From an uncultured Gammaproteobacteria bacterium (GTDB lineage: Bacteria > Pseudomonadota > Gammaproteobacteria > JAKDMP01): a stretch of 64,000 nucleotides of DNA. A model generated the notes under the pieces. That model saw only the letters and a program-made list of their open reading frames with translations. It searched no databases and had not been told where the DNA came from. Below are positions 24,546-45,208 of this stretch, one piece after another (positions within the stretch are counted from its first letter, which is position 1; each line of letters begins with the position of its first letter). The position numbers and the translations under genes were made by a program. The stretch spans positions 129,023 to 193,022 of the forward strand of contig CAWJLN010000001.1 of assembly GCA_963843735.1 (NCBI GenBank), given 5' to 3'.

Positions 24546-24575
24546 CCTTCTCCCCTTGCGGGAGAGGGTGAGGGG
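24546..24575. repeat. single copy of the CCCTCACCC...CCCTCTCCC/GGGAGAGGG hairpin repeat family (inverted orientation)
   Basis: CCTTCTCCCCTTGCGGGAGAGGGTGAGGGG lies just after the aspS stop. The same motif recurs at 40481 and 41497 and, in the opposite orientation, in the 111/114-bp units. Confidence 0.7.
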
Positions 24576-25764: not shown

Positions 25765-26433
25765 ATGTCCGAAGATGGCGGGTCAATTATAGAGAGCGGG
25801 ACGCTGAAGCGCTCCGCGGTTCTGTATGTGCACGGCCTGTTCATGACCGGGCGCGAAGGTTTCGTGCTTGCCCGTCGGCTGCGCCGTCACGGCATTCGCT
25901 GGGAGCGCTTCGTGTATTCCTCGCGGCGCGAGGCGCCTTTGCAGGTGGCGGATCGGCTCGCCGCACGGCTTGCCGCCGAACCCGAATTGAATCTCGTCGG
26001 CCACAGTCTGGGCGGCGTGATCGTTGCGCACGCGCTTGCCGGGTCGCCCGACTGGCGTGGTCGCGCCGTGCTTCTCGGCGCGCCGTTTGCGGGCAGCGAC
26101 ACGGCGCGGCGCGCGGCGCGTTTGCCGGGCGGCCGTCGCCTGCTCGGCGCCGGCGGGCGATTTCTCGCGGGAGAGCTGGCGCAGACATCGGCATCGCGCC
26201 GGGTGATGGTAATCGCCGGCGTACGCAATATCGGCATCGGGCGTTTGATCGGAGCCTGTGCGCCACCGGGCGACGGGCAGGTGCGGCTTGCGGAAACCCG
26301 GCTCGCCGGCGCCGTGCACCGGCTCGCGCGCCGGGGACATGTGGCGCTCCTGTTCGATCGTTTTGTAGCCGAGGCTTGCGCCGCATTCATCCGCGACGGC
26401 CGCTCTTGTCCGGCGCATCGGCGAGGCGGGTAG
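25765..26433 (+). CDS. alpha/beta-hydrolase fold protein
   Basis: VLYVHGLFMTG and the nucleophile elbow GHSLGG. Start taken at ATG 25765. Confidence 0.6.
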   Translation: MSEDGGSIIESGTLKRSAVLYVHGLFMTGREGFVLARRLRRHGIRWERFVYSSRREAPLQVADRLAARLAAEPELNLVGHSLGGVIVAHALAGSPDWRGRAVLLGAPFAGSDTARRAARLPGGRRLLGAGGRFLAGELAQTSASRRVMVIAGVRNIGIGRLIGACAPPGDGQVRLAETRLAGAVHRLARRGHVALLFDRFVAEACAAFIRDGRSCPAHRRGG

Positions 26434-26634
26434 GAGCGGGACCATGCCCGTGATCCCTCCTGGCACGATGAAAACCAATAGAGTCGCGGCTGAAGCCGCT
26501 CCCACCCGAATCATTGCCGGAATCGCGGCAGGGACCGCCACTCCTACGATGGAGGCTGGGGTAGGAGCGGTCGTCCCGGCCGCGATTGCGGCGGTGGGGT
26601 TTTGCGCAGAATCGCGGGCATGGCCCGCTCCTAC
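26430..26634. repeat. cluster of four REP-type elements (GTAGGAGCGG-N-CCGCGAT) in alternating orientation
   Basis: Copies at 26430..26454 (+), 26522..26547 (-), 26561..26586 (+) and 26611..26634 (-). The same family occurs at 36432..36498 and 36893..36963. Confidence 0.8.
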
Positions 26635-36431: not shown

Positions 36432-36498
36432 GTAGGAGCGGGCCATGCCCGCGATGAGTGGCGCGATGGCTTCTGTCGCGGGCATGGCCCGCTCCTAC
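36432..36498. repeat. inverted pair of REP elements (GTAGGAGCGGGCCATGCCCGCGAT family)
   Basis: 36432..36455 forward and 36475..36498 reverse complement, between alaS and csrA. Confidence 0.8.
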
Positions 36499-36892: not shown

Positions 36893-36963
36893 GTAGGAGC
36901 GGCGGTCCCCGCCGCGATTACGTAACGTGCGATTAAAATCGCGGCGGGGACCGCCGCTCCTAC
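36893..36963. repeat. inverted pair of REP elements (GTAGGAGCGGCGGTCCCCGCCGCGAT)
   Basis: 36893..36918 forward and 36938..36963 reverse complement, downstream of csrA. Confidence 0.8.
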
Positions 36964-38740: not shown

Positions 38741-40426
38741 GTGTCAGGTATGCCTGCTTTGTTCAGGAGCGGTGTGCCGAAGGTGTCAATAAAGAGCCGC
38801 GGGAATGGTAGCAGCAACATTTTGGAGGCCGCTTCGGGTGATGGATTCCGAGATCCAGGCTTATCGGACGCGTATGGTCAAGGCGCTGTGACCAAAGCAT
38901 TTACCCGGGTAACCACGTTGGCGCGCCTCTGTGGCAGGCGCTTTTTAATATCAGGTTTGATTATTGGATTGAGTGTGGTGCTTGCGCTTGCGCTTGCGCC
39001 GCGTCCGGCGCAGGCCGATCCCTGGCTCGCACCGGGCAACGTGCAGGCCCGCCAGGACGTCGAACTTCTGGTGGACACGGGTGTCATCAACGTTCCGGTC
39101 ACCACCTGGCCGATTCCCTGGGGTTCAATCTCGGCGCAATTGGCCACCGTGGAGACCGACAAGCTCTCTCCCTCCCAGCAGCTCGCCTACGAACGTCTGC
39201 TCGACGACATCCGCGGCGTGCAGGCGGGCGGCAATCAGTTCGGGTTCATGGCGGCTGCGGCGCCCGGGCGTCCGGCGCTGCGCTGGTTCGGCGACACGCC
39301 GCGCGGCAAGGAGGCGGCCGGCGCCTCCTGGTCCGGCTACAACGGCAATCTCGCCTTCCGCTTCAACGTCGCCGCGGTGTACGGCAGTCGCGATCACCAG
39401 CGTGCTCGTTTCGATGGCAGCTATCTCTCCGTCGCACTCGGCAACTGGATTCTGACCGCCGGCCAGATTGATCAATACTGGGGGCCGGCCTGGAGCGGCA
39501 GCCTGATTCTTGGAACGAATTCGCGGCCGGTGCCCGGCGTGATGTTGAGCCGCAATGTCTCCACGCCCTTCGATACTCCGATCCTGCATTGGATGGGACC
39601 GTGGACGTTCACGATTTTTGCCGGGCGGCTCGAGAACAGCCGCTATGTGCCAAATCCCTTTCTGCTCGGTGCACGTTTCGCGATCCGACCGCTTTCGGGC
39701 GTGGAGATCGGGCTTTCGCGTACCGCCGAGTTCGGTGGCGCGGGGAGACCCCAGAACTGGAGTTGCCTGTGGAAAACCATTATCGGACACACGAATATAC
39801 AACCAGGGACAACAGTTAATTGCGCCAATCAGCTTGCCGCGGTTGACGCAAGGTTCCACATCCCCCGAACACGCCTCGCCTTTTACGGGCAGTTAAACGC
39901 GGAGGACACATCAAGTTCAGGTTTGAGCAAATGGACAGACCTTTTAGGGCTTTCCATGTGGGGAAGTGTCGGCAACGACGGCGCGAACTATCGCGGATTC
40001 CTCGAATATGCCAATACCACGGTCAATTCATATAAACAGCCCGACCCCAATATCGAATATGAACACGGTATCTATCGCAGCGGTTACCGCTATCGTGGCT
40101 TCGATCTGGGCTATCCGACCGACAACGACAGCGAACTATGGACCCTGGGCCTGACCCTGCAAGGTGCGAACGATGGCCAATTGACCTTCATTCTGCGGCA
40201 TGGTACCCTCAATCGCGACAATACCAATGTGTTCGAGCCGTGGGGTGGCAATAAATTGGCGCCGGTGCGAACGGGGCTGGACGAAGCCGACGTGTATTTC
40301 CAACCGTCGTTCTGGGGGGGGCATTTGAATCTCGGTGTGGGGGTTATCCGCTGGGCGCCGATTGGGCTGCCGGTCGAGACGGGACTGCACGCGCAAGTGG
40401 TATGGCAGCAAGGCTTCAACGAATGA
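38741..40426 (+). CDS. wzi: capsule assembly outer-membrane protein, Wzi family
   Basis: Signal peptide ...LALALAPRPAQA|DPWLAPGNVQARQDVELLVDTGVINVPVTTWPIPWGSI (Wzi-type N-terminal motif), followed by a long beta-rich region. The true start is probably GTG 38888 or TTG 38918. Confidence 0.7.
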   Translation: MSGMPALFRSGVPKVSIKSRGNGSSNILEAASGDGFRDPGLSDAYGQGAVTKAFTRVTTLARLCGRRFLISGLIIGLSVVLALALAPRPAQADPWLAPGNVQARQDVELLVDTGVINVPVTTWPIPWGSISAQLATVETDKLSPSQQLAYERLLDDIRGVQAGGNQFGFMAAAAPGRPALRWFGDTPRGKEAAGASWSGYNGNLAFRFNVAAVYGSRDHQRARFDGSYLSVALGNWILTAGQIDQYWGPAWSGSLILGTNSRPVPGVMLSRNVSTPFDTPILHWMGPWTFTIFAGRLENSRYVPNPFLLGARFAIRPLSGVEIGLSRTAEFGGAGRPQNWSCLWKTIIGHTNIQPGTTVNCANQLAAVDARFHIPRTRLAFYGQLNAEDTSSSGLSKWTDLLGLSMWGSVGNDGANYRGFLEYANTTVNSYKQPDPNIEYEHGIYRSGYRYRGFDLGYPTDNDSELWTLGLTLQGANDGQLTFILRHGTLNRDNTNVFEPWGGNKLAPVRTGLDEADVYFQPSFWGGHLNLGVGVIRWAPIGLPVETGLHAQVVWQQGFNE

Positions 40427-41034
40427 AGGCTTCCCTGTTCAATCCTTCATTTCCACAGTTGTCGGAGGATGACTCTCTTGCTCCTTCTCCCCTTGCGGGA
40501 GAAGGTGAGGACAAGGGGAACATTGCGAAGCAATGGAAGGTGCTTTTCACCCTCACCCCAACCCTCTCCCGTCGAGGGAGAGGGGGCAAGACAGGTTTTT
40601 TACCCTCCTTCTTGTTCGCATTGCGAGGAAGGGGGAGTTGGAGGGGGATTCCGGGATTTCTCACCCTCACCCCAACCCTCTCCCGTCAAGGGAGAGGGAG
40701 CAAGACGGCTGGAAGCATTCTCGCAATCGGCGTTTTGAGTTTGGCGCTCGCAGGCTGTTCGCTGCCGGGCAGGGCCTTTCCGGGCGGTCCAAGCCCTTGG
40801 CTGTCGGGAGGGGCACCGGGTTCCGTTTACGGAGCCCCGCCAGCCACGTCTCCAGCCCCGGCGACCACTCACCGGGGCAGCTCTGAAGTACAACGTCCGG
40901 CCGATTCAGGCACAGCGACGAGCGGCAAAAAGGGCGGCGATTATCCGTTGCCACGCAGTGTCGGCTTCGATAAAGAACGAGTATTTCGATACAATGCGCG
41001 CCTTGATCCCGAGCTGCGCACCGCTTTATCTACA
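40423..41034 (+). other. open frame from an ATGA-coupled ATG through the repeat array to a lipobox (LALAGC, Cys codon 40756); coding status unresolved
   Basis: ATG 40423 overlaps the wzi stop. The frame stays open through the 114-bp repeats to AIGVLSLALAGCSLPG and then a Pro/Gly/Ser-rich stretch. There is no stop before wzb, which is in the same frame. Confidence 0.3.
40481..40700. repeat. repeat array: one inverted-orientation hairpin copy + 1.35 tandem units of 114 bp (CCCTCACCCCAACCCTCTCCCGTCGAGGGAGAGGG...)
   Basis: Units start at 40547 and 40661 (period 114). Each unit holds the hairpins CCCTCTCCC-N4-GGGAGAGGG and CCTTG/CTCGCA-T-TGCGAGGAAGG. Confidence 0.8.
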
Positions 41035-41478
41035 ATGATAGCCAGTCTGCTTGTCGTTTGCACCGGTAATATCTGCCGCAGCCCGATGGCGGCGGCCCTG
41101 TTTGCCGAGCGCGCCGGCGCAGCGGGGAAGCCGCTTGAAGTGGCCTCTGCCGGCACGGCGGCGATGATCGGTCATCCTCCACCCGATGAGGCGATTGAAC
41201 TCATGGCCGAGCGGGGGCTCGATATCAGCGGTCACCGGGGCCGGCAGATCACGGGTGAAATCGCCCGAAACTACGACCTTATTCTGGTGATGGAGCGCGC
41301 GCAGCAACAGTACATTGAAGCCAACTGGCCGATATTCAGGGGACGCGTGCACCGCCTCGGCGATCGGCGTGACGAAGACATCAGCGATCCGTATAGCAAG
41401 CCAAAGGAGGCATACTTGGAAAGCCTTGCGCAGATTGATGCCGGGGTGGAGGAATGGAGCGGGATGTTGCTTCAATGA
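41035..41478 (+). CDS. wzb: low-molecular-weight protein-tyrosine phosphatase
   Basis: MIASLLVVCTGNICRSPMAAALF (C-x5-R-S P-loop) and DISDPY; 147 aa. Confidence 0.9.
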   Translation: MIASLLVVCTGNICRSPMAAALFAERAGAAGKPLEVASAGTAAMIGHPPPDEAIELMAERGLDISGHRGRQITGEIARNYDLILVMERAQQQYIEANWPIFRGRVHRLGDRRDEDISDPYSKPKEAYLESLAQIDAGVEEWSGMLLQ

Positions 41479-43004
41479 AAAAAATGATATTCGTATCCCC
41501 TCTTCCCTTGCGGGAGAGGGCAAGGGTGAGGGGTACAGCCGCGAAGCGGCTGATAGTTGGAATGTTCACCCTCACCCCAACCCTCTCCCGTCAAGGGAGA
41601 GGGAGCAGGACAGGTTTACCCTCCTCCTTGCTCGCATTGCGAGGAAGGGGGAGTTGGAGGGGGATTTCGGGATTTCTCACCCTCACCCCAACCCTCTCCC
41701 GTCAAGGGAGAGGGAGCAAGACAGGGTTACCCTCCTCCTTGCTCGCATCGCGAGGAAGGGGGAGTTGGAGGGGGATTCCGGGATTTCTCACCCTCACCCC
41801 AACCCTCTCCCGTCAAGGGAGAGGGGGCAGAGCTGCTCTTGCAATCGGTGTGCTGGGCTTGGCGCTGGCGGGATGCTCATTGCCGGGTTTTTCCTTTCAC
41901 GGCAGCCACAAGCGTGCGCAGGAGAACGGGAAAGCGACGGGCTATCAGGTGCAGCCCATTACCCCGGCGCTGCTTCGGGCGCAGGCCGAGAAGCGGCAGC
42001 AGACCGCAGTGGGTCTGCCCAATCCGGCGCTGAAACAGGCCATCAGCGACTACAGTTATCGCGTGCAGTCCCAGGATGTGATCGGCGTCACGATTTGGGG
42101 GCACCCGGAGTTCAGCCCCGGCGCATCTCCGGCCGCCGATTTGTCTTCGGCCAATAACACCGGCATTACGAATCCCGGTGCCGCATCCCCCGGTCAGGCC
42201 GGATTCACCGTCCAGGCGGACGGGACAATTTTCTTCCCCTACGTCGGTAAGCTGCACGTCGCGGGACTCACGATGGACGAGGTGCGCGAGAAACTGACCA
42301 AGGCACTGAAGGCCTACGTCGTTGATCCGCAGATCAACGTGACCGTAGTCGGGTTTCACGGCCAGACGTATCAACTTGCGGGCGCGGTCGTCAAGCCGGG
42401 CTTGTATCCGATTACCAACGTGCCGGTTACGGTATCTCAGGCGATCCAGGCCGCGGGGGGCATCCTGCAGACGGTCCCGACCGTAACGGTTGCTTCCAAG
42501 GCATCTGCAACGGCACTGGCTGATCTGGCGCACGTCCTCTACATCCACGATGGCAAGCGCTCGGTCTTGAACCTGCGCGATTTCTTTCAGAACGGCGACG
42601 AATCGCAGGATCGTCTCGTGCATCCGGGCGATATCATCCAGGTGCCCGACAATTCCTTCGATCAGGTGCATCTGATTGGCGAGGTGCGGGAGCCGGGTAA
42701 TTACCCGCTCGACAACGGGCAGTTGAATCTAGCCCAGGCGTTGGGCGCCGCGGGCGGTCTCGATCTGACCACGGCGAATCCGAGCCGCATTTTTGTGTTC
42801 CGGGGAGCGTACGAAAAGCCGCTGATCTTTTGGCTGGATGCGCGGTCTCCCGAATCCATGCTGCTGGCCACGCAGTTTGAGTTGAAACCGCAGGATGTCG
42901 TCTTTGTCGCAACCGCGGGCATCAGTACCTGGAACCGTATCGTCAGTCAGATTCTGCCGACGGTGCAGGCGCTTTACGAAACCAAGGTGTTGGTGAAGCC
43001 ATGA
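41475..43004 (+). CDS. wza: polysaccharide export outer-membrane lipoprotein Wza (start and N-terminus unresolved because of the in-frame repeat array)
   Basis: Lipobox LALAGC (Cys codon 41874), then a Poly_export-type region (YRVQSQDVIGVTIWGHPEFS, TVQADGTIFFPYVGKLHVAGLTMDEVR) and SLBB-like repeats. ATG 41475 overlaps the wzb stop (ATGA). The only start-like codon near the lipobox is GTG 41850. Confidence 0.8.
   Translation: MKKMIFVSPLPLRERARVRGTAAKRLIVGMFTLTPTLSRQGRGSRTGLPSSLLALRGRGSWRGISGFLTLTPTLSRQGRGSKTGLPSSLLASRGRGSWRGIPGFLTLTPTLSRQGRGGRAALAIGVLGLALAGCSLPGFSFHGSHKRAQENGKATGYQVQPITPALLRAQAEKRQQTAVGLPNPALKQAISDYSYRVQSQDVIGVTIWGHPEFSPGASPAADLSSANNTGITNPGAASPGQAGFTVQADGTIFFPYVGKLHVAGLTMDEVREKLTKALKAYVVDPQINVTVVGFHGQTYQLAGAVVKPGLYPITNVPVTVSQAIQAAGGILQTVPTVTVASKASATALADLAHVLYIHDGKRSVLNLRDFFQNGDESQDRLVHPGDIIQVPDNSFDQVHLIGEVREPGNYPLDNGQLNLAQALGAAGGLDLTTANPSRIFVFRGAYEKPLIFWLDARSPESMLLATQFELKPQDVVFVATAGISTWNRIVSQILPTVQALYETKVLVKP
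41497..41825. repeat. repeat array: one inverted-orientation hairpin copy + 2.35 tandem units of 111 bp, same family as 40481..40700
   Basis: Units start at 41566, 41677 and 41788 (period 111 = 37 codons). Confidence 0.85.
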
Positions 43005-45208
43005 GTGATGCCGAGAATAAATCCGAAAACCAGAGCAAAGGTAATGCCTGGACGCCATCGCAGAGTATGGCCGTAGCCGGTAATGAGGACGGAGTAGATC
43101 TACGCGTATTGACCGCTGCGTTGTGGGGAGGGAAGTGGATCATTGCGGCCATCGCCGCCGTGGTGCTGGTGCTCGCGCTACTTTATGCTTTCCTTGCGCA
43201 TCCGGTTTACGAGGCGGATGCGCTGATCCAGATCGAGCAACAAAATCAAACTCCGGGCACCTCCACGGATATTCTATCGCTTCTATTGCCGATGGCCGCT
43301 CCTGCGGATGCCGAAATCGCGATTATGACTTCGCGCTCGGTCCTTCAGCCTGCCGTCGAGCACGAGCACCTTAATATCGTGATAGCGGGGGAGGGGTTGC
43401 CCTTCATCGGGCATTCGGATGTGACAGGGGTTGCGGTTACGCAATTGCAGGTGCCCGGTGATTGGATGGACCAAAAACTGGAACTCACACCCAAGGGAAA
43501 TGGTGCTTATGAGCTTGCTTCCCCGTCAGGCGACGAGGTTCTCAAAGGCCAGGTCGGCCGGCTTGTGAGCGCTCGCAACGGAACCGTCAAGATTCTGGTC
43601 AGCCGTCTGGATGCACCGGCGGGCGAGAGTATTACGCTAACGCGCCTTTACGATCAGGAAGCCATCTCGACGCTGCAGAAGAATTTAACCGCTGCCGAAC
43701 AGGGCAAGGACACCGGCATCGTGCAGATCACTTTGGATGGTCCGCAGCCAACCCGAACCAGGGATATCCTCAACACCCTGGTGGATCAGTACATCAATCA
43801 GAATGTAGCGGTCATGGCACTGCAGGCAAAAACCAGCCTGGCGTTCATTAACAAGCAATTGCCACAGCTCAAAAAACAACTGGACGCTGCCGAAGCCAAG
43901 CTGACTGTCTTCAAAACGAAAAACGGTGCCGTTGGCCTCGATCAACAGGCGCAAACGATGCTGCAAGTGCTGACAACGTTGGAATCTCAGCTTACACAAC
44001 TAAATCTTGCCGAGGCGGCCATGCGCCAGAGCTACACTTCCCGCTATCCGGGCTTCCGGGCACTGCGTGGTCAGGAGAAGGACATCCAGCGGAAAGTAGA
44101 AGCCATCGAGACCAAAATCAACCTGTTGCCCAAGCAGGAGCAGAACTACCTGGGATTGATGCAGGACGTGCAGGTATATACGCAGCTTTATACGACACTG
44201 CTGGCCAAGGTGCAGGATCTTCAGCTCGCCGAGGCAGGCACGGTGGGGAGTGCGCGCGTCGTGGATTATGCGGTCACGCCGATCAAACCGGTTGCGCCCC
44301 GCAAGAGCATCATCGTCGTGCTAGGGCTGTTGCTCGGATTATTTCTGGGCGTCATGGTCGTATTTTTACGCCACGCATTGTCGCGCACGGTGCAGGACGC
44401 GGCCGCGCTTGAGCGCGAGTTCGGCTTGCCGGTTTACGCCGTGGTGCCGCACAGCGACCAACAGGACTATTTGATCAAGAAAGCCAAACGCAGCCATGCG
44501 ACGGGGATACCCTTGCTGGCGGTTGACGATCCGCTTGATCCGACCGTCGAATCCATCCGCAGCCTGCGTACCAGCATCAACTTTGCGCTGCAAGGATCGG
44601 CGCGCAAGGTAATCACCTTGGGCGGCTGCGCTCCCGGGGTCGGCAAGAGTTTCCTCAGCGTCAATCTGGCGCATGTCCTTGGAGCGAGTGGTGCGAGGAT
44701 ATTGCTTGTTGACGCCGACATGCGACGCGGACATCTGGAAAAGTACATGGATGGGCGCAAGCAGCCCGGCCTGTCCCAGATTCTATCCGGCGAAGTCTCT
44801 TCGGAGGAGGCGATTCGCCACAGCCCGTACAGCAAAAACGTGGACTTTCTGCCTACCGGAATATTTCCTCCCAATCCCTACGAATTGCTGACGAATCCTC
44901 GCCTGCGAGCGCTCATTGACACATGTTCGGATAGTTATGATCTGGTGGTTGTTGACGTGCCGCCGGTGTTGGCGGTTGCGGAAGGCTTGCTTATCAACCG
45001 CCTTGCGACGGCTAATTTCCTTGTCGTCAGGGCGGGATCACAGACGCTTCAGGAGTTGCGCCTGGCAGTAGATCGCATGCGGCAAAACGGCATTCAACCG
45101 AACGGCTTCGTGTTCAATGACCTTACGCGTCAGGCGGCAACCAACACCTATGGTCGCTATGCCAAGACTTATTACTACACCCGTTATGGCAATCAAGGGA
45201 AGAAGTGA
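43001..45208 (+). CDS. wzc: polysaccharide co-polymerase / tyrosine autokinase (BY-kinase)
   Basis: Wzz-like N-terminal half with two TMs, Walker A GCAPGVGKS, Walker A' LLVDADMRR, Walker B VVVDVPP, and a C-terminal Tyr cluster YGRYAKTYYYTRY. ATGA overlap with wza. Confidence 0.9.
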   Translation: MSDAENKSENQSKGNAWTPSQSMAVAGNEDGVDLRVLTAALWGGKWIIAAIAAVVLVLALLYAFLAHPVYEADALIQIEQQNQTPGTSTDILSLLLPMAAPADAEIAIMTSRSVLQPAVEHEHLNIVIAGEGLPFIGHSDVTGVAVTQLQVPGDWMDQKLELTPKGNGAYELASPSGDEVLKGQVGRLVSARNGTVKILVSRLDAPAGESITLTRLYDQEAISTLQKNLTAAEQGKDTGIVQITLDGPQPTRTRDILNTLVDQYINQNVAVMALQAKTSLAFINKQLPQLKKQLDAAEAKLTVFKTKNGAVGLDQQAQTMLQVLTTLESQLTQLNLAEAAMRQSYTSRYPGFRALRGQEKDIQRKVEAIETKINLLPKQEQNYLGLMQDVQVYTQLYTTLLAKVQDLQLAEAGTVGSARVVDYAVTPIKPVAPRKSIIVVLGLLLGLFLGVMVVFLRHALSRTVQDAAALEREFGLPVYAVVPHSDQQDYLIKKAKRSHATGIPLLAVDDPLDPTVESIRSLRTSINFALQGSARKVITLGGCAPGVGKSFLSVNLAHVLGASGARILLVDADMRRGHLEKYMDGRKQPGLSQILSGEVSSEEAIRHSPYSKNVDFLPTGIFPPNPYELLTNPRLRALIDTCSDSYDLVVVDVPPVLAVAEGLLINRLATANFLVVRAGSQTLQELRLAVDRMRQNGIQPNGFVFNDLTRQAATNTYGRYAKTYYYTRYGNQGKK

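What the first reader, a model, noticed from the sequence alone, without database searches (positions are those of the whole stretch)
40423..41880. In-frame REP-type arrays sit between ATGA-coupled start codons and lipobox signal peptides, duplicated on both sides of wzb
Two loci 1.05 kb apart share the same layout.

**First component: coupled start.** An ATG overlaps the stop of the preceding gene: AATGAAGG at 40423 after wzi (MKASLF...), and CAATGAAAAAAATG at 41475 after wzb (MKKMIF...).

**Second component: repeat array.** One inverted-orientation hairpin copy is followed by tandem units containing CCCTCTCCC-N4-GGGAGAGGG. The first locus has 1.35 units of 114 bp and the second has 2.35 units of 111 bp.

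**Third component: signal-peptide end.** The ends are homologous: AIGVLSLALAGCSLPG and AIGVLGLALAGCSLPG.

Both periods are multiples of 3, and both frames stay open from the coupled ATG to the lipobox Cys (codon 112 and codon 134). For wza there is no ATG or TTG, and only one GTG (41850, 8 codons before the Cys), between the array and the lipobox. Three explanations are possible. Wza may be made with a >100-aa repeat-encoded insertion splitting the n- and h-regions of its signal peptide. It may use an atypical start. Or the arrays may be intercistronic RNA elements, such as mRNA stabilisers or attenuators setting wzi:wzb:wza ratios, that happen to preserve frame. The first locus looks like a duplicated wza 5' end now running without a stop into wzb.
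Basis: partly seen in the sequence, partly recalled or inferred. Interest (0 to 1): 0.6.

Follow-up and report, generated by a model that had tools for sequence, protein, structure and literature searches.

The report
Repeat arrays inside lipoprotein signal peptides
Selfish hairpin repeats have landed inside the export-signal coding region of two capsule-locus lipoprotein genes (a small lipoprotein and the exporter Wza), and in every related genome that carries such an insert the reading frame is kept, so the repeats are probably translated as a long throw-away extension of the signal peptide.

Summary
Hairpin arrays follow (one inverted copy plus tandem units of 114 and 111 bp), then a lipobox (Cys codons 112 and 134), with no stop in between.

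Relatives decide the reading. Wza and a conserved small lipoprotein normally start at that same coupled ATG, with signal peptides of 15-21 codons before the Cys. Twelve alleles in eight genomes have extra DNA there, 43-133 codons before the Cys. All twelve have a length that is a multiple of 3 and no stop from the coupled start, including old inserts whose hairpins have decayed.

The best reading is therefore that REP-like elements inserted just after the upstream stop codon. Because of the overlap they lie in the n-region of the signal peptide, and they survive only when they can be read through. The window has no credible start codon downstream of either array.

This is a new variant of the known in-frame REP/RPE insertions. 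Translation itself is inferred, not shown.

The parts
38741..40426 (+). wzi (capsule assembly protein Wzi). Its TGA stop lies inside the ATGA at 40423-40426. The true start may be downstream of 38741.
   Evidence: Pfam PF14052, E 1.7e-73; sequence
40423..40758 (+). Extended signal-peptide region of the small lipoprotein: coupled ATG 40423, 111 codons, lipobox LAGC 40747-40758 (Cys codon 40756-40758).
   Evidence: Translation has no stop and the length is a multiple of 3. The relatives L005, L006, L008, L009, L086 and L092 have 19-20 codons from the same coupled ATG.
40473..40517 (+). Locus 1, inverted-orientation REP-like copy (hairpin CCTTCTCCCC-TTGC-GGGAGAAGG).
   Evidence: Inverted repeats I1 and I2; pattern match at 40483
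40546..40706 (+). Locus 1 tandem array, about 1.4 units of 114 bp. Hairpin A sits at 40562-40584 and 40676-40698, hairpin B with its G-rich tail at 40599-40650.
   Evidence: Direct-repeat families D1 and D2. About 96% identical to the locus 2 units, with one 3-nt indel. RNA fold z -4.7.
40756..40830 (+). Conserved mature N-terminus of the small lipoprotein (CSLPGRAFPGGPSPWLSGGAPGSVY). The ORF continues in frame into wzb.
   Evidence: Conserved in L002, L005, L006, L008, L009, L086, L087, L089 and L092
40967..40995 (+). Promoter-like site TCGATA-17-TACAAT, about 40 nt upstream of the wzb ATG.
   Evidence: Consensus scan. The TACAAT motif is also present at the matching place in L001 and L002.
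41035..41478 (+). wzb (low-molecular-weight phosphotyrosine phosphatase), from its own ATG. Its TGA lies inside the ATGA at 41475-41478.
   Evidence: Pfam PF01451, E 1.1e-30. A start codon is conserved at this position in the relatives.
41475..41876 (+). Extended signal-peptide region of Wza: coupled ATG 41475 (MKKMIF), 133 codons, h-region AALAIGVLGLALAG, lipobox LAGC 41865-41876 (Cys codon 41874-41876).
   Evidence: No stop, length a multiple of 3, net charge +22. The only hydrophobic stretch is the h-region. ATGA coupling is conserved in all 9 relatives first examined.
41497..41532 (+). Locus 2, inverted-orientation REP-like copy. It pairs with the forward copy at 41569-41603, giving a REPIN-like doublet with a 36-nt spacer.
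   Evidence: Inverted repeats I3, I6 and I7
41566..41829 (+). Locus 2 tandem array, 2.4 units of 111 bp. Hairpin A cores are at 41581-41603, 41692-41714 and 41803-41825. Hairpin B tails GGAAGGGGGAGTTGGAGGGGGATT are at 41643 and 41754.
   Evidence: TRF period 111, 96% matches. RNA fold of 41470-41880: -226.5 kcal/mol, z -8.55.
41874..43004 (+). Mature Wza (outer-membrane polysaccharide export lipoprotein), from the lipobox Cys to the stop.
   Evidence: Pfam Poly_export, SLBB_2, SLBB and Wza_C. 55-79% identical to homologues.
43001..45208 (+). wzc (tyrosine autokinase and co-polymerase), overlapping the wza stop.
   Evidence: Pfam Wzz, WZC_N, GNVR and AAA_31
24546..24568 (+). The only other copy of this hairpin family in the window. 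It sits in an ordinary extragenic position, 13 nt after a stop codon.

Best explanation
REP-like hairpin elements inserted a few nucleotides downstream of the stop codons of wzi and wzb, which is the usual landing zone for such repeats. They comprise an inverted doublet and then tandem units, each made of hairpin A plus hairpin B.

Both stop codons overlap the next gene's ATG (ATGA). The landing zone is therefore not intergenic. It is the first few codons, the n-region, of a lipoprotein signal peptide.

Only inserts that keep the frame and carry no stop survive, because Wza and the small lipoprotein are still translated from the coupled ATG. The result is a precursor with a roughly 90-115-residue basic, Gly/Ser/Arg/Leu-rich extension ahead of an otherwise normal h-region and lipobox.

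The extension would stay on the cytoplasmic side. It would be discarded when signal peptidase II cuts before the Cys, so the mature proteins are unchanged and the insert is nearly neutral. The tandem expansion (111- and 114-bp units) and the near-identity of the two arrays are recent events in this lineage.

**Shown:** the anatomy, the ancestral start position, and frame conservation across relatives.

**Inferred:** translation through the array, export competence of the long precursor, and the insertion mechanism.
For: 1. **The coupled start is ancestral.** ATGA overlap of wzb and wza is present in all 9 relatives first examined. It gives canonical signal peptides of 15-21 codons before the Cys in L001, L003, L005, L006, L009 and L010. 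L091 has 21 codons from a GTGA overlap. The small lipoprotein likewise starts at the wzi ATGA, with 19-20 codons, in L005, L006, L008, L009, L086 and L092.
2. **The frame is always kept.** Twelve extended alleles are all a multiple of 3 in length, with no stop from the coupled start to the Cys. They are the window x2, L002 x2, L008, L085, L086, L087 x2, L089 x2 and L092. Lengths differ: 43, 55, 58, 64, 64, 71, 75, 86, 111, 121, 126 and 133 codons. The +1 frame has 2 or more stops in every allele. L089 was fetched as a possible counter-example, because its gene call was truncated, and it also fits.
3. **Old inserts kept the frame after losing their structure.** L085, L002-wza, L008, L092 and L089-lip no longer fold better than shuffles (z -0.2 to -1.5). 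They still have the frame, the start codon and the basic MK(K/R) N-terminus.
4. **The window has no usable downstream start.** For wza the nearest in-frame candidates are GTG at -8 and TTG at -5 codons, then TTG at -45. For the small lipoprotein they are TTG at -7 and -5, then -45.
5. **Indels between the two window arrays are 3 and 9 nt**.
6. **The extension suits a cytoplasmic n-region.** Net charge is positive in all 12 alleles (+4 to +22). The only hydrophobic stretch is the h-region.
7. **The position fits known REP behaviour.** REPs characteristically sit close to the 3' end of the upstream ORF, and in-frame intragenic REPs are documented (PMC3733652). The one other copy in the window lies 13 nt after a stop.
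Against: - No expression or protein data exist. Translation through the array is an inference.
- Five relatives have a plausible internal start with its own basic n-region: L008, L086, L087 x2 and L002-lip. In those the insert could be untranslated leader.
- The alleles are not fully independent. Some share ancestry, and arrays within one genome are related. Two of them (L085 and L087-wza) were picked because a long ORF had been called.
- The tandem units have no stop in any forward frame, so absence of stops there is cheap.
- The coupled frame is the most basic of the three in only 6 of 12 alleles, so charge is weak evidence.
- I know of no tested lipoprotein signal peptide with an n-region over 100 residues. 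A -226 kcal/mol structure must be unwound by the ribosome.
- The 3' junction and the copy number of the arrays are not independently confirmed.
Confidence: 0.6

Rival explanations
1. The arrays are untranslated intercistronic REP/BIME-type RNA elements, acting as mRNA stabilisers or attenuators that set the wzi:wzb:wza ratios. Wza and the small lipoprotein would start at an atypical or weak codon at or inside the 3' end of the array. Candidates are GTG 41850, ATC 41844, or TTG 45 codons before the Cys.
For: - This is the default view for REPs found at annotated N-termini (PMC3733652).
- The arrays fold very strongly, with z -8.55 and -4.71.
- L008, L086, L087 (both loci) and L002-lip have an internal ATG or GTG 19-32 codons before the Cys with a basic n-region.
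- Gene callers chose downstream starts.
Against: - 12 of 12 alleles are in frame and free of stops from the coupled start. Chance predicts about one in three in frame, and fewer also free of stops.
- The frame is kept where the hairpins have decayed.
- In the window, GTG 41850 would leave 8 residues before the Cys with no charged n-region. It lies 22 nt from the nearest GGAGG-like stretch, which is itself a hairpin arm.
- The coupled ATG or GTG and the MK(K/R) N-terminus are retained in all insert-bearing alleles.
Confidence: 0.22
2. The inserts have disabled both genes in this genome. wza and the small lipoprotein would be young pseudogenes, or be expressed without export, and frame preservation here would be luck.
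For: - The arrays in the window are young: units are 94-97% identical.
- The genome's own gene call for Wza lacks a signal peptide (P0001, 374 aa).
- Unchecked earlier notes report frameshifts in alaS and recX in this window.
Against: - The Wza body is full length with all four domains and is 70-79% identical to relatives.
- Both loci are in frame.
- Insert-bearing alleles have persisted across lineages that are only 61-77% identical in Wza.
Confidence: 0.1
3. Assembly artefact: dispersed repeats caused a mis-join, or a collapse or expansion, so the arrays are not really at these sites or not of these lengths.
For: - The repeat core occurs with many unrelated flanks in soil metagenome contigs.
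- Short-read assemblies handle 111-bp tandem units poorly.
- The 3' junction between the array and the h-region has no independent contig.
Against: - Independent contigs cover wzb into the first hairpin (41376-41526 and 41332-41494) and the inside of the array (41677-41817) with 1-2 differences.
- Seven other genomes have inserts at the same two junctions.
- Any copy number of a 111- or 114-bp unit keeps the frame.
Confidence: 0.05

Closest known systems
Intragenic REPs (GTAG- and CGTC-tagged palindromic repeats; Di Nocera, De Gregorio and Rocco 2013, PMC3733652)
   Same: Short GC-rich palindromes that are dispersed and mostly sit just downstream of ORF 3' ends. Some are carried in frame inside genes, singly, as dimers or as clusters encoding up to 43-82 residues. 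The paper's supplementary list includes N-terminal cases in exported proteins, for example a P. fluorescens periplasmic binding protein.
   Different: - The array units here lack a GTAG or CGTC head.
- The authors regard most N-terminal cases as misannotated and not coding. Here the homologous start lies upstream of the insert and the frame is conserved in 12 alleles.
- The encoded stretch is longer (about 90-115 residues) and lies specifically between the n- and h-regions of a lipoprotein signal peptide.
Rickettsia palindromic elements (RPE; Ogata et al. 2000, as cited in PMC3733652)
   Same: Selfish palindromic repeats inserted in frame in genes that still encode functional proteins. According to the paper, some N-terminally decorated proteins are expressed in vivo.
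   Different: A different sequence family and host. RPEs add surface loops to mature proteins. Here the insert lies in a segment that is cleaved off, so the mature protein would not carry it.
REPIN/RAYT systems and E. coli BIMEs (REP mosaics between genes of an operon, e.g. malE-malF; from general knowledge)
   Same: An inverted doublet with a 36-nt spacer (41498-41603), a mosaic of two hairpin types, a position between co-transcribed genes and very stable RNA structure. The same window also holds a classical GTAG REPIN family.
   Different: - The tandem units all point the same way, whereas BIME units alternate.
- There is no GTAG head.
- The elements lie inside an open reading frame rather than in an untranslated spacer.
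Extended signal peptide region (ESPR) of autotransporters, and long Tat n-regions (from general knowledge)
   Same: Natural signal peptides with an N-terminal extension ahead of a normal n/h/c core. They show that export machinery tolerates extra N-terminal residues.
   Different: Those extensions are about 25-30 residues, conserved and functional. Here the extension is 90-115 residues, repeat-derived and variable between relatives, on a type II (lipoprotein) signal.

Membership tests
REP / REPIN (RAYT-mobilised repetitive extragenic palindromes) | Short (20-40 nt) imperfect GC-rich palindrome | tested here: met
   CCCTCTCCC-GTCAA-GGGAGAGGG with flanking C-rich and G-rich tails
REP / REPIN (RAYT-mobilised repetitive extragenic palindromes) | Many dispersed copies, mostly extragenic and close to ORF 3' ends | tested here: inconclusive
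   - Only three sites lie in the 64-kb window: one extragenic, 13 nt after a stop, and two in signal peptides.
- The core occurs with unrelated flanks in soil contigs.
- Unchecked earlier notes report nine or more loci elsewhere in the genome.
- A whole-genome count was impossible.
REP / REPIN (RAYT-mobilised repetitive extragenic palindromes) | Conserved GTAG (or CGTC) tetranucleotide at the head of the palindrome | tested here: not met
   The array units start TCACCCTCACCCC, with no CTAC or GTAG head. CGTC occurs only in the loop. The single copy at 24546 has GGGGTAGG after its G-rich tail. A separate family in the window does have GTAG heads.
REP / REPIN (RAYT-mobilised repetitive extragenic palindromes) | Inverted doublets (REPINs) | tested here: met
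   Arms 41498-41532 and 41569-41603, 80% complementary, 36 nt apart. The analogous pair at locus 1 is 40476-40517 and 40664-40705.
REP / REPIN (RAYT-mobilised repetitive extragenic palindromes) | Cognate RAYT transposase gene flanked by the repeats | not testable with these tools
In-frame palindromic insertions in coding genes (RPE-like / intragenic REP) | The insert is absent from orthologues and interrupts an otherwise collinear ORF without a frameshift or stop | tested here: met
   Canonical orthologues have 15-21 codons before the Cys. All 12 extended alleles are in frame and free of stops.
In-frame palindromic insertions in coding genes (RPE-like / intragenic REP) | The decorated protein is actually expressed with the insert | not testable with these tools
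   No RNA, ribosome-profiling or proteome data exist for this organism. The only runs found are low-depth soil DNA.
Type II (lipoprotein) signal peptide | Hydrophobic h-region followed by a lipobox [LVI][ASTVI][GAS]C | tested here: met
   AALAIGVLGLA-LAGC and SILAIGVLSLA-LAGC. This is the only window with Kyte-Doolittle mean above 1.6 in the first 160 residues of pre-Wza.
Type II (lipoprotein) signal peptide | Short, positively charged n-region (a few residues) directly at the N-terminus | tested here: not met
   The charge is positive (+22 and +8), but the region ahead of the h-region is about 95-118 residues if translation starts at the coupled ATG. No start codon gives a normal length.
Wza / OPX outer-membrane polysaccharide exporter | Poly_export, SLBB domains and the C-terminal Wza helix | tested here: met
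   PF02563, PF22461, PF10531 and PF18412 are all above their cut-offs

The most novel reading that the evidence does not exclude
The n-regions of cleavable signal peptides may be a general safe harbour for selfish hairpin repeats wherever genes are ATGA-coupled, because whatever is inserted there is thrown away after export.

In this clade the harboured arrays may have become functional. They would act as frame-neutral (111- and 114-bp) expandable modules that tune how much Wza and small lipoprotein is made relative to Wzb, through slow translation of a -226 kcal/mol structure or slower targeting of a long precursor.

The two arrays are 96% identical direct repeats flanking wzb. They could also mediate deletion or gene conversion that switches capsule regulation.
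Probability: 0.2. Interest if true: 0.7.

Novelty: new variant of a known kind. Interest (0 to 1): 0.55.

Why it matters
- **Coding status of N-terminal REPs.** REP-type repeats at annotated N-termini are usually dismissed as annotation errors. Here comparative data, rather than a gene call, argue that the repeats are read through. That would give lipoprotein precursors with signal peptides of 111-133 residues, far beyond what predictors and annotation pipelines accept.
- **A practical annotation error.** The genome's own Wza call starts after the lipobox Cys and so lacks its signal peptide.
- **A simple rule for where selfish repeats can hide in compact operons.** When ATGA overlap removes the intergenic spacer, the cleaved-off signal peptide is the tolerant target.
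- **A ready experimental system.** It offers a natural case for asking how long and how structured an n-region the Sec/Lgt/LspA pathway tolerates.

Tried and rejected
- **Rfam:** only sub-threshold chance hits to miRNA and BjrC80 models, nothing at gathering score.
- **Exact repeat core in relatives:** no match in the first 84 fetched loci. With up to 4 mismatches, only degenerate relics (L085, L087) and the shared hairpin-B tail (L002, L086, L087, L089) turn up.
- **Sequencing runs:** only three low-depth soil DNA runs. There was no RNA, no joints and no copy-number variants.
- **P0017**, another long-N-terminus homologue, is not on record, so its DNA could not be read.
- **'The coupled frame is the basic frame':** true and striking for the window's wza array (+19 against -1 and -1). 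It is the most positive frame in only 6 of 12 alleles, so I dropped it as a general argument.
- **'Open frame across the units is significant':** rejected, because all three forward frames are open there.
- **Recent gene conversion covering the h-region:** the arrays are about 96% identical between the two loci, but the adjacent h-region and lipobox DNA is only 68% identical (47-61% in other genomes). The conversion or co-insertion concerns the arrays, not clearly the h-region.
- **L090**, fetched as a possible counter-example, has a different upstream context (a transposase, no wzb) and a normal GTG-started signal peptide.
- **Literature searches** for REP insertions in signal peptides found nothing specific.

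Full report
**1. What is in the window**

The region is a group-1-type capsule/EPS export block: wzi (38741-40426), an ORF that runs from 40423 into wzb, wza (41475-43004) and wzc (43001-45208). Pfam supports each assignment:

| Gene | Pfam evidence |
|---|---|
| wzi | Wzi, 1.7e-73 |
| wzb | LMWPc, 1.1e-30 |
| wza | Poly_export, SLBB_2, SLBB, Wza_C |
| wzc | Wzz, WZC_N, GNVR, AAA_31 |

- The wzi stop and the wzb stop each lie inside an ATGA whose ATG opens the next frame, at 40423 and 41475.
- From 40423 the frame reads MKASLF..., then 111 codons, then lipobox LAGC with its Cys codon at 40756.
- From 41475 it reads MKKMIF..., then 133 codons, then LAGC with its Cys codon at 41874. Neither stretch has a stop.

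**2. The repeats**

- TRF reports 2.4 copies of a 111-bp unit at 41566-41829, 96% matches.
- Locus 1 holds about 1.4 units at 40546-40706. They are about 96% identical to the locus 2 units apart from one 3-nt indel, which makes the period 114. A 9-nt indel lies at the 3' edge.
- Each unit has two parts. Hairpin A is TCACCCTCACCCCAACCCTCTCCC-GTCAA-GGGAGAGGG. Hairpin B is CCTCCTTGCTCGC-ATY-GCGAGGAAGG, followed by the G-rich tail GGGGGAGTTGGAGGGGGATT.
- Each locus starts with an inverted-orientation copy of A, at 40473-40517 and 41497-41532. At locus 2 this copy forms a REPIN-like doublet with the first forward copy, with a 36-nt spacer.
- The A core occurs 8 times in the window against 0 in shuffles. 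The only copy outside the two loci is at 24546, 13 nt after a stop codon.
- As RNA the two regions fold to -226.5 kcal/mol (z -8.55) and -154.9 kcal/mol (z -4.71).
- Rfam has nothing at threshold.
- A distinct, classical GTAG-headed REPIN family also lies in the window, at 26430-26634, 36432-36498 and 36893-36963. The array units have no GTAG or CGTC head.

**3.

- The loop is 5 nt, not 4.
- An in-frame TTG exists at 41859.
- The tandem units have no stop in any of the three forward frames, while all three reverse frames have stops. An open frame across the units therefore proves little. What carries information is that the whole insert length is a multiple of 3, and that the non-repeat and inverted parts are also free of stops.

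**4. What relatives show**

I collected relatives through the Wza protein from genome contigs, metagenome contigs and the protein collection plus contig look-ups.

*The normal state.* wzb and wza overlap by ATGA in all 9 relatives first examined, down to 55% Wza identity.
- In L001, L003, L005, L006, L009 and L010 the coupled ATG opens an ordinary lipoprotein signal peptide of 15-21 codons, for example MKKISVVAVVLSIGTVTAG-C.
- L007 has the same kind of peptide (MKRYTLIVLSLAGLTAAGLSG-C).
- L091 has 21 codons from a GTGA overlap.
- The coupled ATG is therefore the ancestral Wza start.

*Locus 1 is a gene in its own right.* It is not a recent copy of the wza 5' end.
- A small lipoprotein with the mature N-terminus CSLPG(R/Q)AFPGGPSPWLPGGAPGSVY follows wzi in L002, L005, L006, L008, L009, L086, L087, L089 and L092.
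- In L005, L006, L008, L009, L086 and L092 it starts at an ATGA overlap with wzi and has 19-20 codons before the Cys.

**5. Insert-bearing alleles**

| Junction | Allele (codons before the Cys) |
|---|---|
| wzb\|wza | window 133, L002 43, L008 58, L085 64, L086 64, L087 126, L089 71 (GTGA-coupled), L092 55 (ATG 5 nt after the wzb stop) |
| wzi\|lipoprotein | window 111, L002 86, L087 121, L089 75 |

- All twelve lengths are multiples of 3, and none has a stop in the coupled frame. The +1 frame has 2 or more stops in every allele, and the +2 frame has 0-3.
- If the frame were irrelevant, about one in three alleles would be in frame, and fewer would also lack stops.
- Two alleles (L085 and L087-wza) were chosen because a long ORF had been called, so they are biased. 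The other ten were not.
- L089 was fetched as a likely counter-example, because its Wza call was truncated to MALTLAGC. It turned out in frame at both loci.
- The alleles are not fully independent, since some share ancestry and arrays within one genome are related. But all except two lengths differ, so many indels have happened and the net frame was kept each time.
- The inserts of L085, L002-wza, L008, L092 and L089-lip no longer fold better than shuffled sequence (z -0.2 to -1.5). They still keep the frame, the coupled start codon and the basic MK(K/R) N-terminus. L085 is plainly a decayed version of the window's first doublet: FPLPSKKRAKARG...FALTPTFSYQGGEG against SPLPLRERARVRG...FTLTPTLSRQGRGS.
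- What is conserved is therefore the reading frame, not the RNA structure.

**6. Alternative starts**

*In the window.*
- For wza the in-frame ATG, GTG or TTG codons nearest the Cys are GTG at -8 and TTG at -5 codons, then TTG at -45.
- For the small lipoprotein they are TTG at -7 and -5, then -45.
- A start 5-8 codons before the Cys leaves no n-region and half an h-region.
- GTG 41850 lies 22 nt from the nearest purine-rich stretch, which is itself the 3' arm of a hairpin.
- L089 likewise has no credible internal start.

*In other relatives.*
- L008 (MEHPSRR..., -27), L086 (MPSLLLAKRGRGSWRG..., -32), both L087 loci (M(S/G)GQ(A/G)RGSWRGFLL..., -26 and -27) and L002-lip (GTG, -19) do have plausible internal starts.
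- In those genomes a shorter precursor may be made as well as, or instead of, the long one.
- The tail of hairpin B, read as RGSWRG, supplies the basic n-region in several of them.

**7. Mechanism proposed**

REPs characteristically sit within a few tens of bases downstream of the upstream ORF's stop (PMC3733652). The window's own extragenic copy does so. At an ATGA junction that zone is the 5' end of the next gene.

Here it is the n-region of a type II signal peptide. This segment needs only a start codon, net positive charge and no folding. It stays cytoplasmic and is cut off and degraded.

The extensions are net positive in all 12 alleles (+4 to +22). In pre-Wza the only hydrophobic window is the h-region next to the lipobox. 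The frame used in the window's wza array has no acidic residue in the units (+19 against -1 and -1 in the other frames). Across alleles, however, the used frame is the most basic in only 6 of 12, so I do not lean on charge.

I therefore hold that the arrays are translated from the coupled ATG and discarded with the signal peptide, leaving mature Wza and the small lipoprotein unchanged. The steps that are inferred rather than shown are translation through the array, export and LspA processing of a 111-133-residue signal peptide, and the insertion mechanism.

The high identity of the two arrays (about 96% over roughly 170 nt) suggests recent co-insertion or conversion between the loci, plus tandem duplication. 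The neighbouring h-region DNA is only 68% identical. Three other genomes (L002, L087, L089) also carry inserts at both loci. Those of L087 and L089 share long motifs between the two loci, and those of L002 show no evident likeness.

**8. Rivals**

- **Untranslated intercistronic element with a weak downstream start, about 0.22.** It fits general REP lore and the relatives with internal ATGs. It fails to explain 12/12 frames and decayed but in-frame inserts.
- **Young pseudogenes, about 0.1.** The arrays are young, and unchecked notes mention other frameshifts in this window. But the Wza body is intact, and such alleles persist across lineages that are 61-77% identical.
- **Assembly artefact, about 0.05.** Soil contigs confirm the wzb/array junction and an internal segment with 1-2 differences, and other genomes show inserts at the same sites. 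The 3' junction and the copy number remain unconfirmed, although any copy number keeps the frame.

**9. Comparison with known systems**

- In-frame palindromic inserts are known: Rickettsia RPEs, and the intragenic GTAG/CGTC REPs of many bacteria, with clusters encoding up to 43-82 residues (PMC3733652).
- That paper lists N-terminal cases, including one in a periplasmic binding protein, but regards most as annotation errors. It also notes REP arrays flanking EPS genes in Thauera.
- What differs here is the site (between the start codon and the h-region of a lipoprotein signal peptide, at two paralogous ATGA junctions), the size (about 90-115 residues) and the comparative evidence that the frame is under selection.
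- I found no paper describing REP insertions in signal peptides.
- I class this as a new variant of a known kind.

**10. Earlier notes of this scan**

All are unchecked leads. They report the same hairpin family at nine or more loci elsewhere in this genome, a 112-bp-period array in an untranslated gap, and in-frame copies in an oxoprolinase gene. If confirmed, the contrast between a 112-bp period outside ORFs and 111/114 bp inside signal peptides would strengthen the selection argument. I could not test it.

Noticed in passing
window 40756-41034, and L001, L002, L005, L006, L008, L009, L086, L087, L089, L091, L092: A small lipoprotein gene with no Pfam match lies between wzi and wzb. Only its first ~25 mature residues are conserved (CSLPGRAFPGGPSPWLPGGAPGSVY), and the rest is a variable Pro/Ala/Ser/Thr-rich tail. 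In about half of the genomes (window, L001, L002, L008, L087, L092, and apparently L091) it reads without a stop into wzb, giving a roughly 240-aa 'lipoprotein-Wzb' ORF. Gene callers report this ORF as one gene in L091 and L092. In L005, L006, L009, L086 and L089 it has its own stop. A periplasmic lipid-anchored Wzb would be odd, because its substrate Wzc is phosphorylated in the cytoplasm.
   Followed up: partly
window 40967-40995: A promoter-like site, TCGATA-17-TACAAT, lies about 40 nt upstream of the wzb ATG (41035), inside the small-lipoprotein ORF. A TACAAT motif sits at the corresponding place in L001 and L002 although the protein sequence there has diverged. It may be an internal promoter for wzb-wza-wzc.
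   Followed up: partly
window 41880-43004 (protein P0001): The gene call on record for this genome's Wza is 374 aa and starts at the TTG two codons after the lipobox Cys (MPGFSFHG...). As annotated, the protein has no signal peptide or lipidation site.
   Followed up: yes
window 26430-26634, 36432-36498, 36893-36963: A second, classical REPIN family with GTAG heads (GTAGGAGCGGGCCATGCCCGCGAT and its inverse), unrelated to the array units. Inverted pairs bracket csrA.
   Followed up: partly
L002 3253; L086 2528; L087 1806, 2813, 6341 and 2545(-); L089 2453: The G-rich tail of hairpin B (GGAAGGGGGAGTTGGAGGGGGATT, read as RGSWRG) is nearly invariant in relatives whose Wza is only 61-71% identical. 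One copy is intergenic, downstream of wzc in L087. In several alleles it lies directly before the h-region, where it provides the basic n-region behind an internal ATG.
   Followed up: partly
L008 2827-3001: The extended Wza signal-peptide region of L008 contains what looks like a decayed second h-region (ILSIGTVVPT, compare L005 VLSIGTVTAG) upstream of the functional one. This suggests duplication or replacement of the signal-peptide end rather than a REP insertion.
   Followed up: no
window 40546-40706 and 41566-41829: The two arrays are direct repeats, about 96% identical over roughly 170 nt and about 1 kb apart, flanking the small-lipoprotein tail and wzb. Recombination between them would delete wzb. 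No such joint appeared in the low-depth soil runs.
   Followed up: partly
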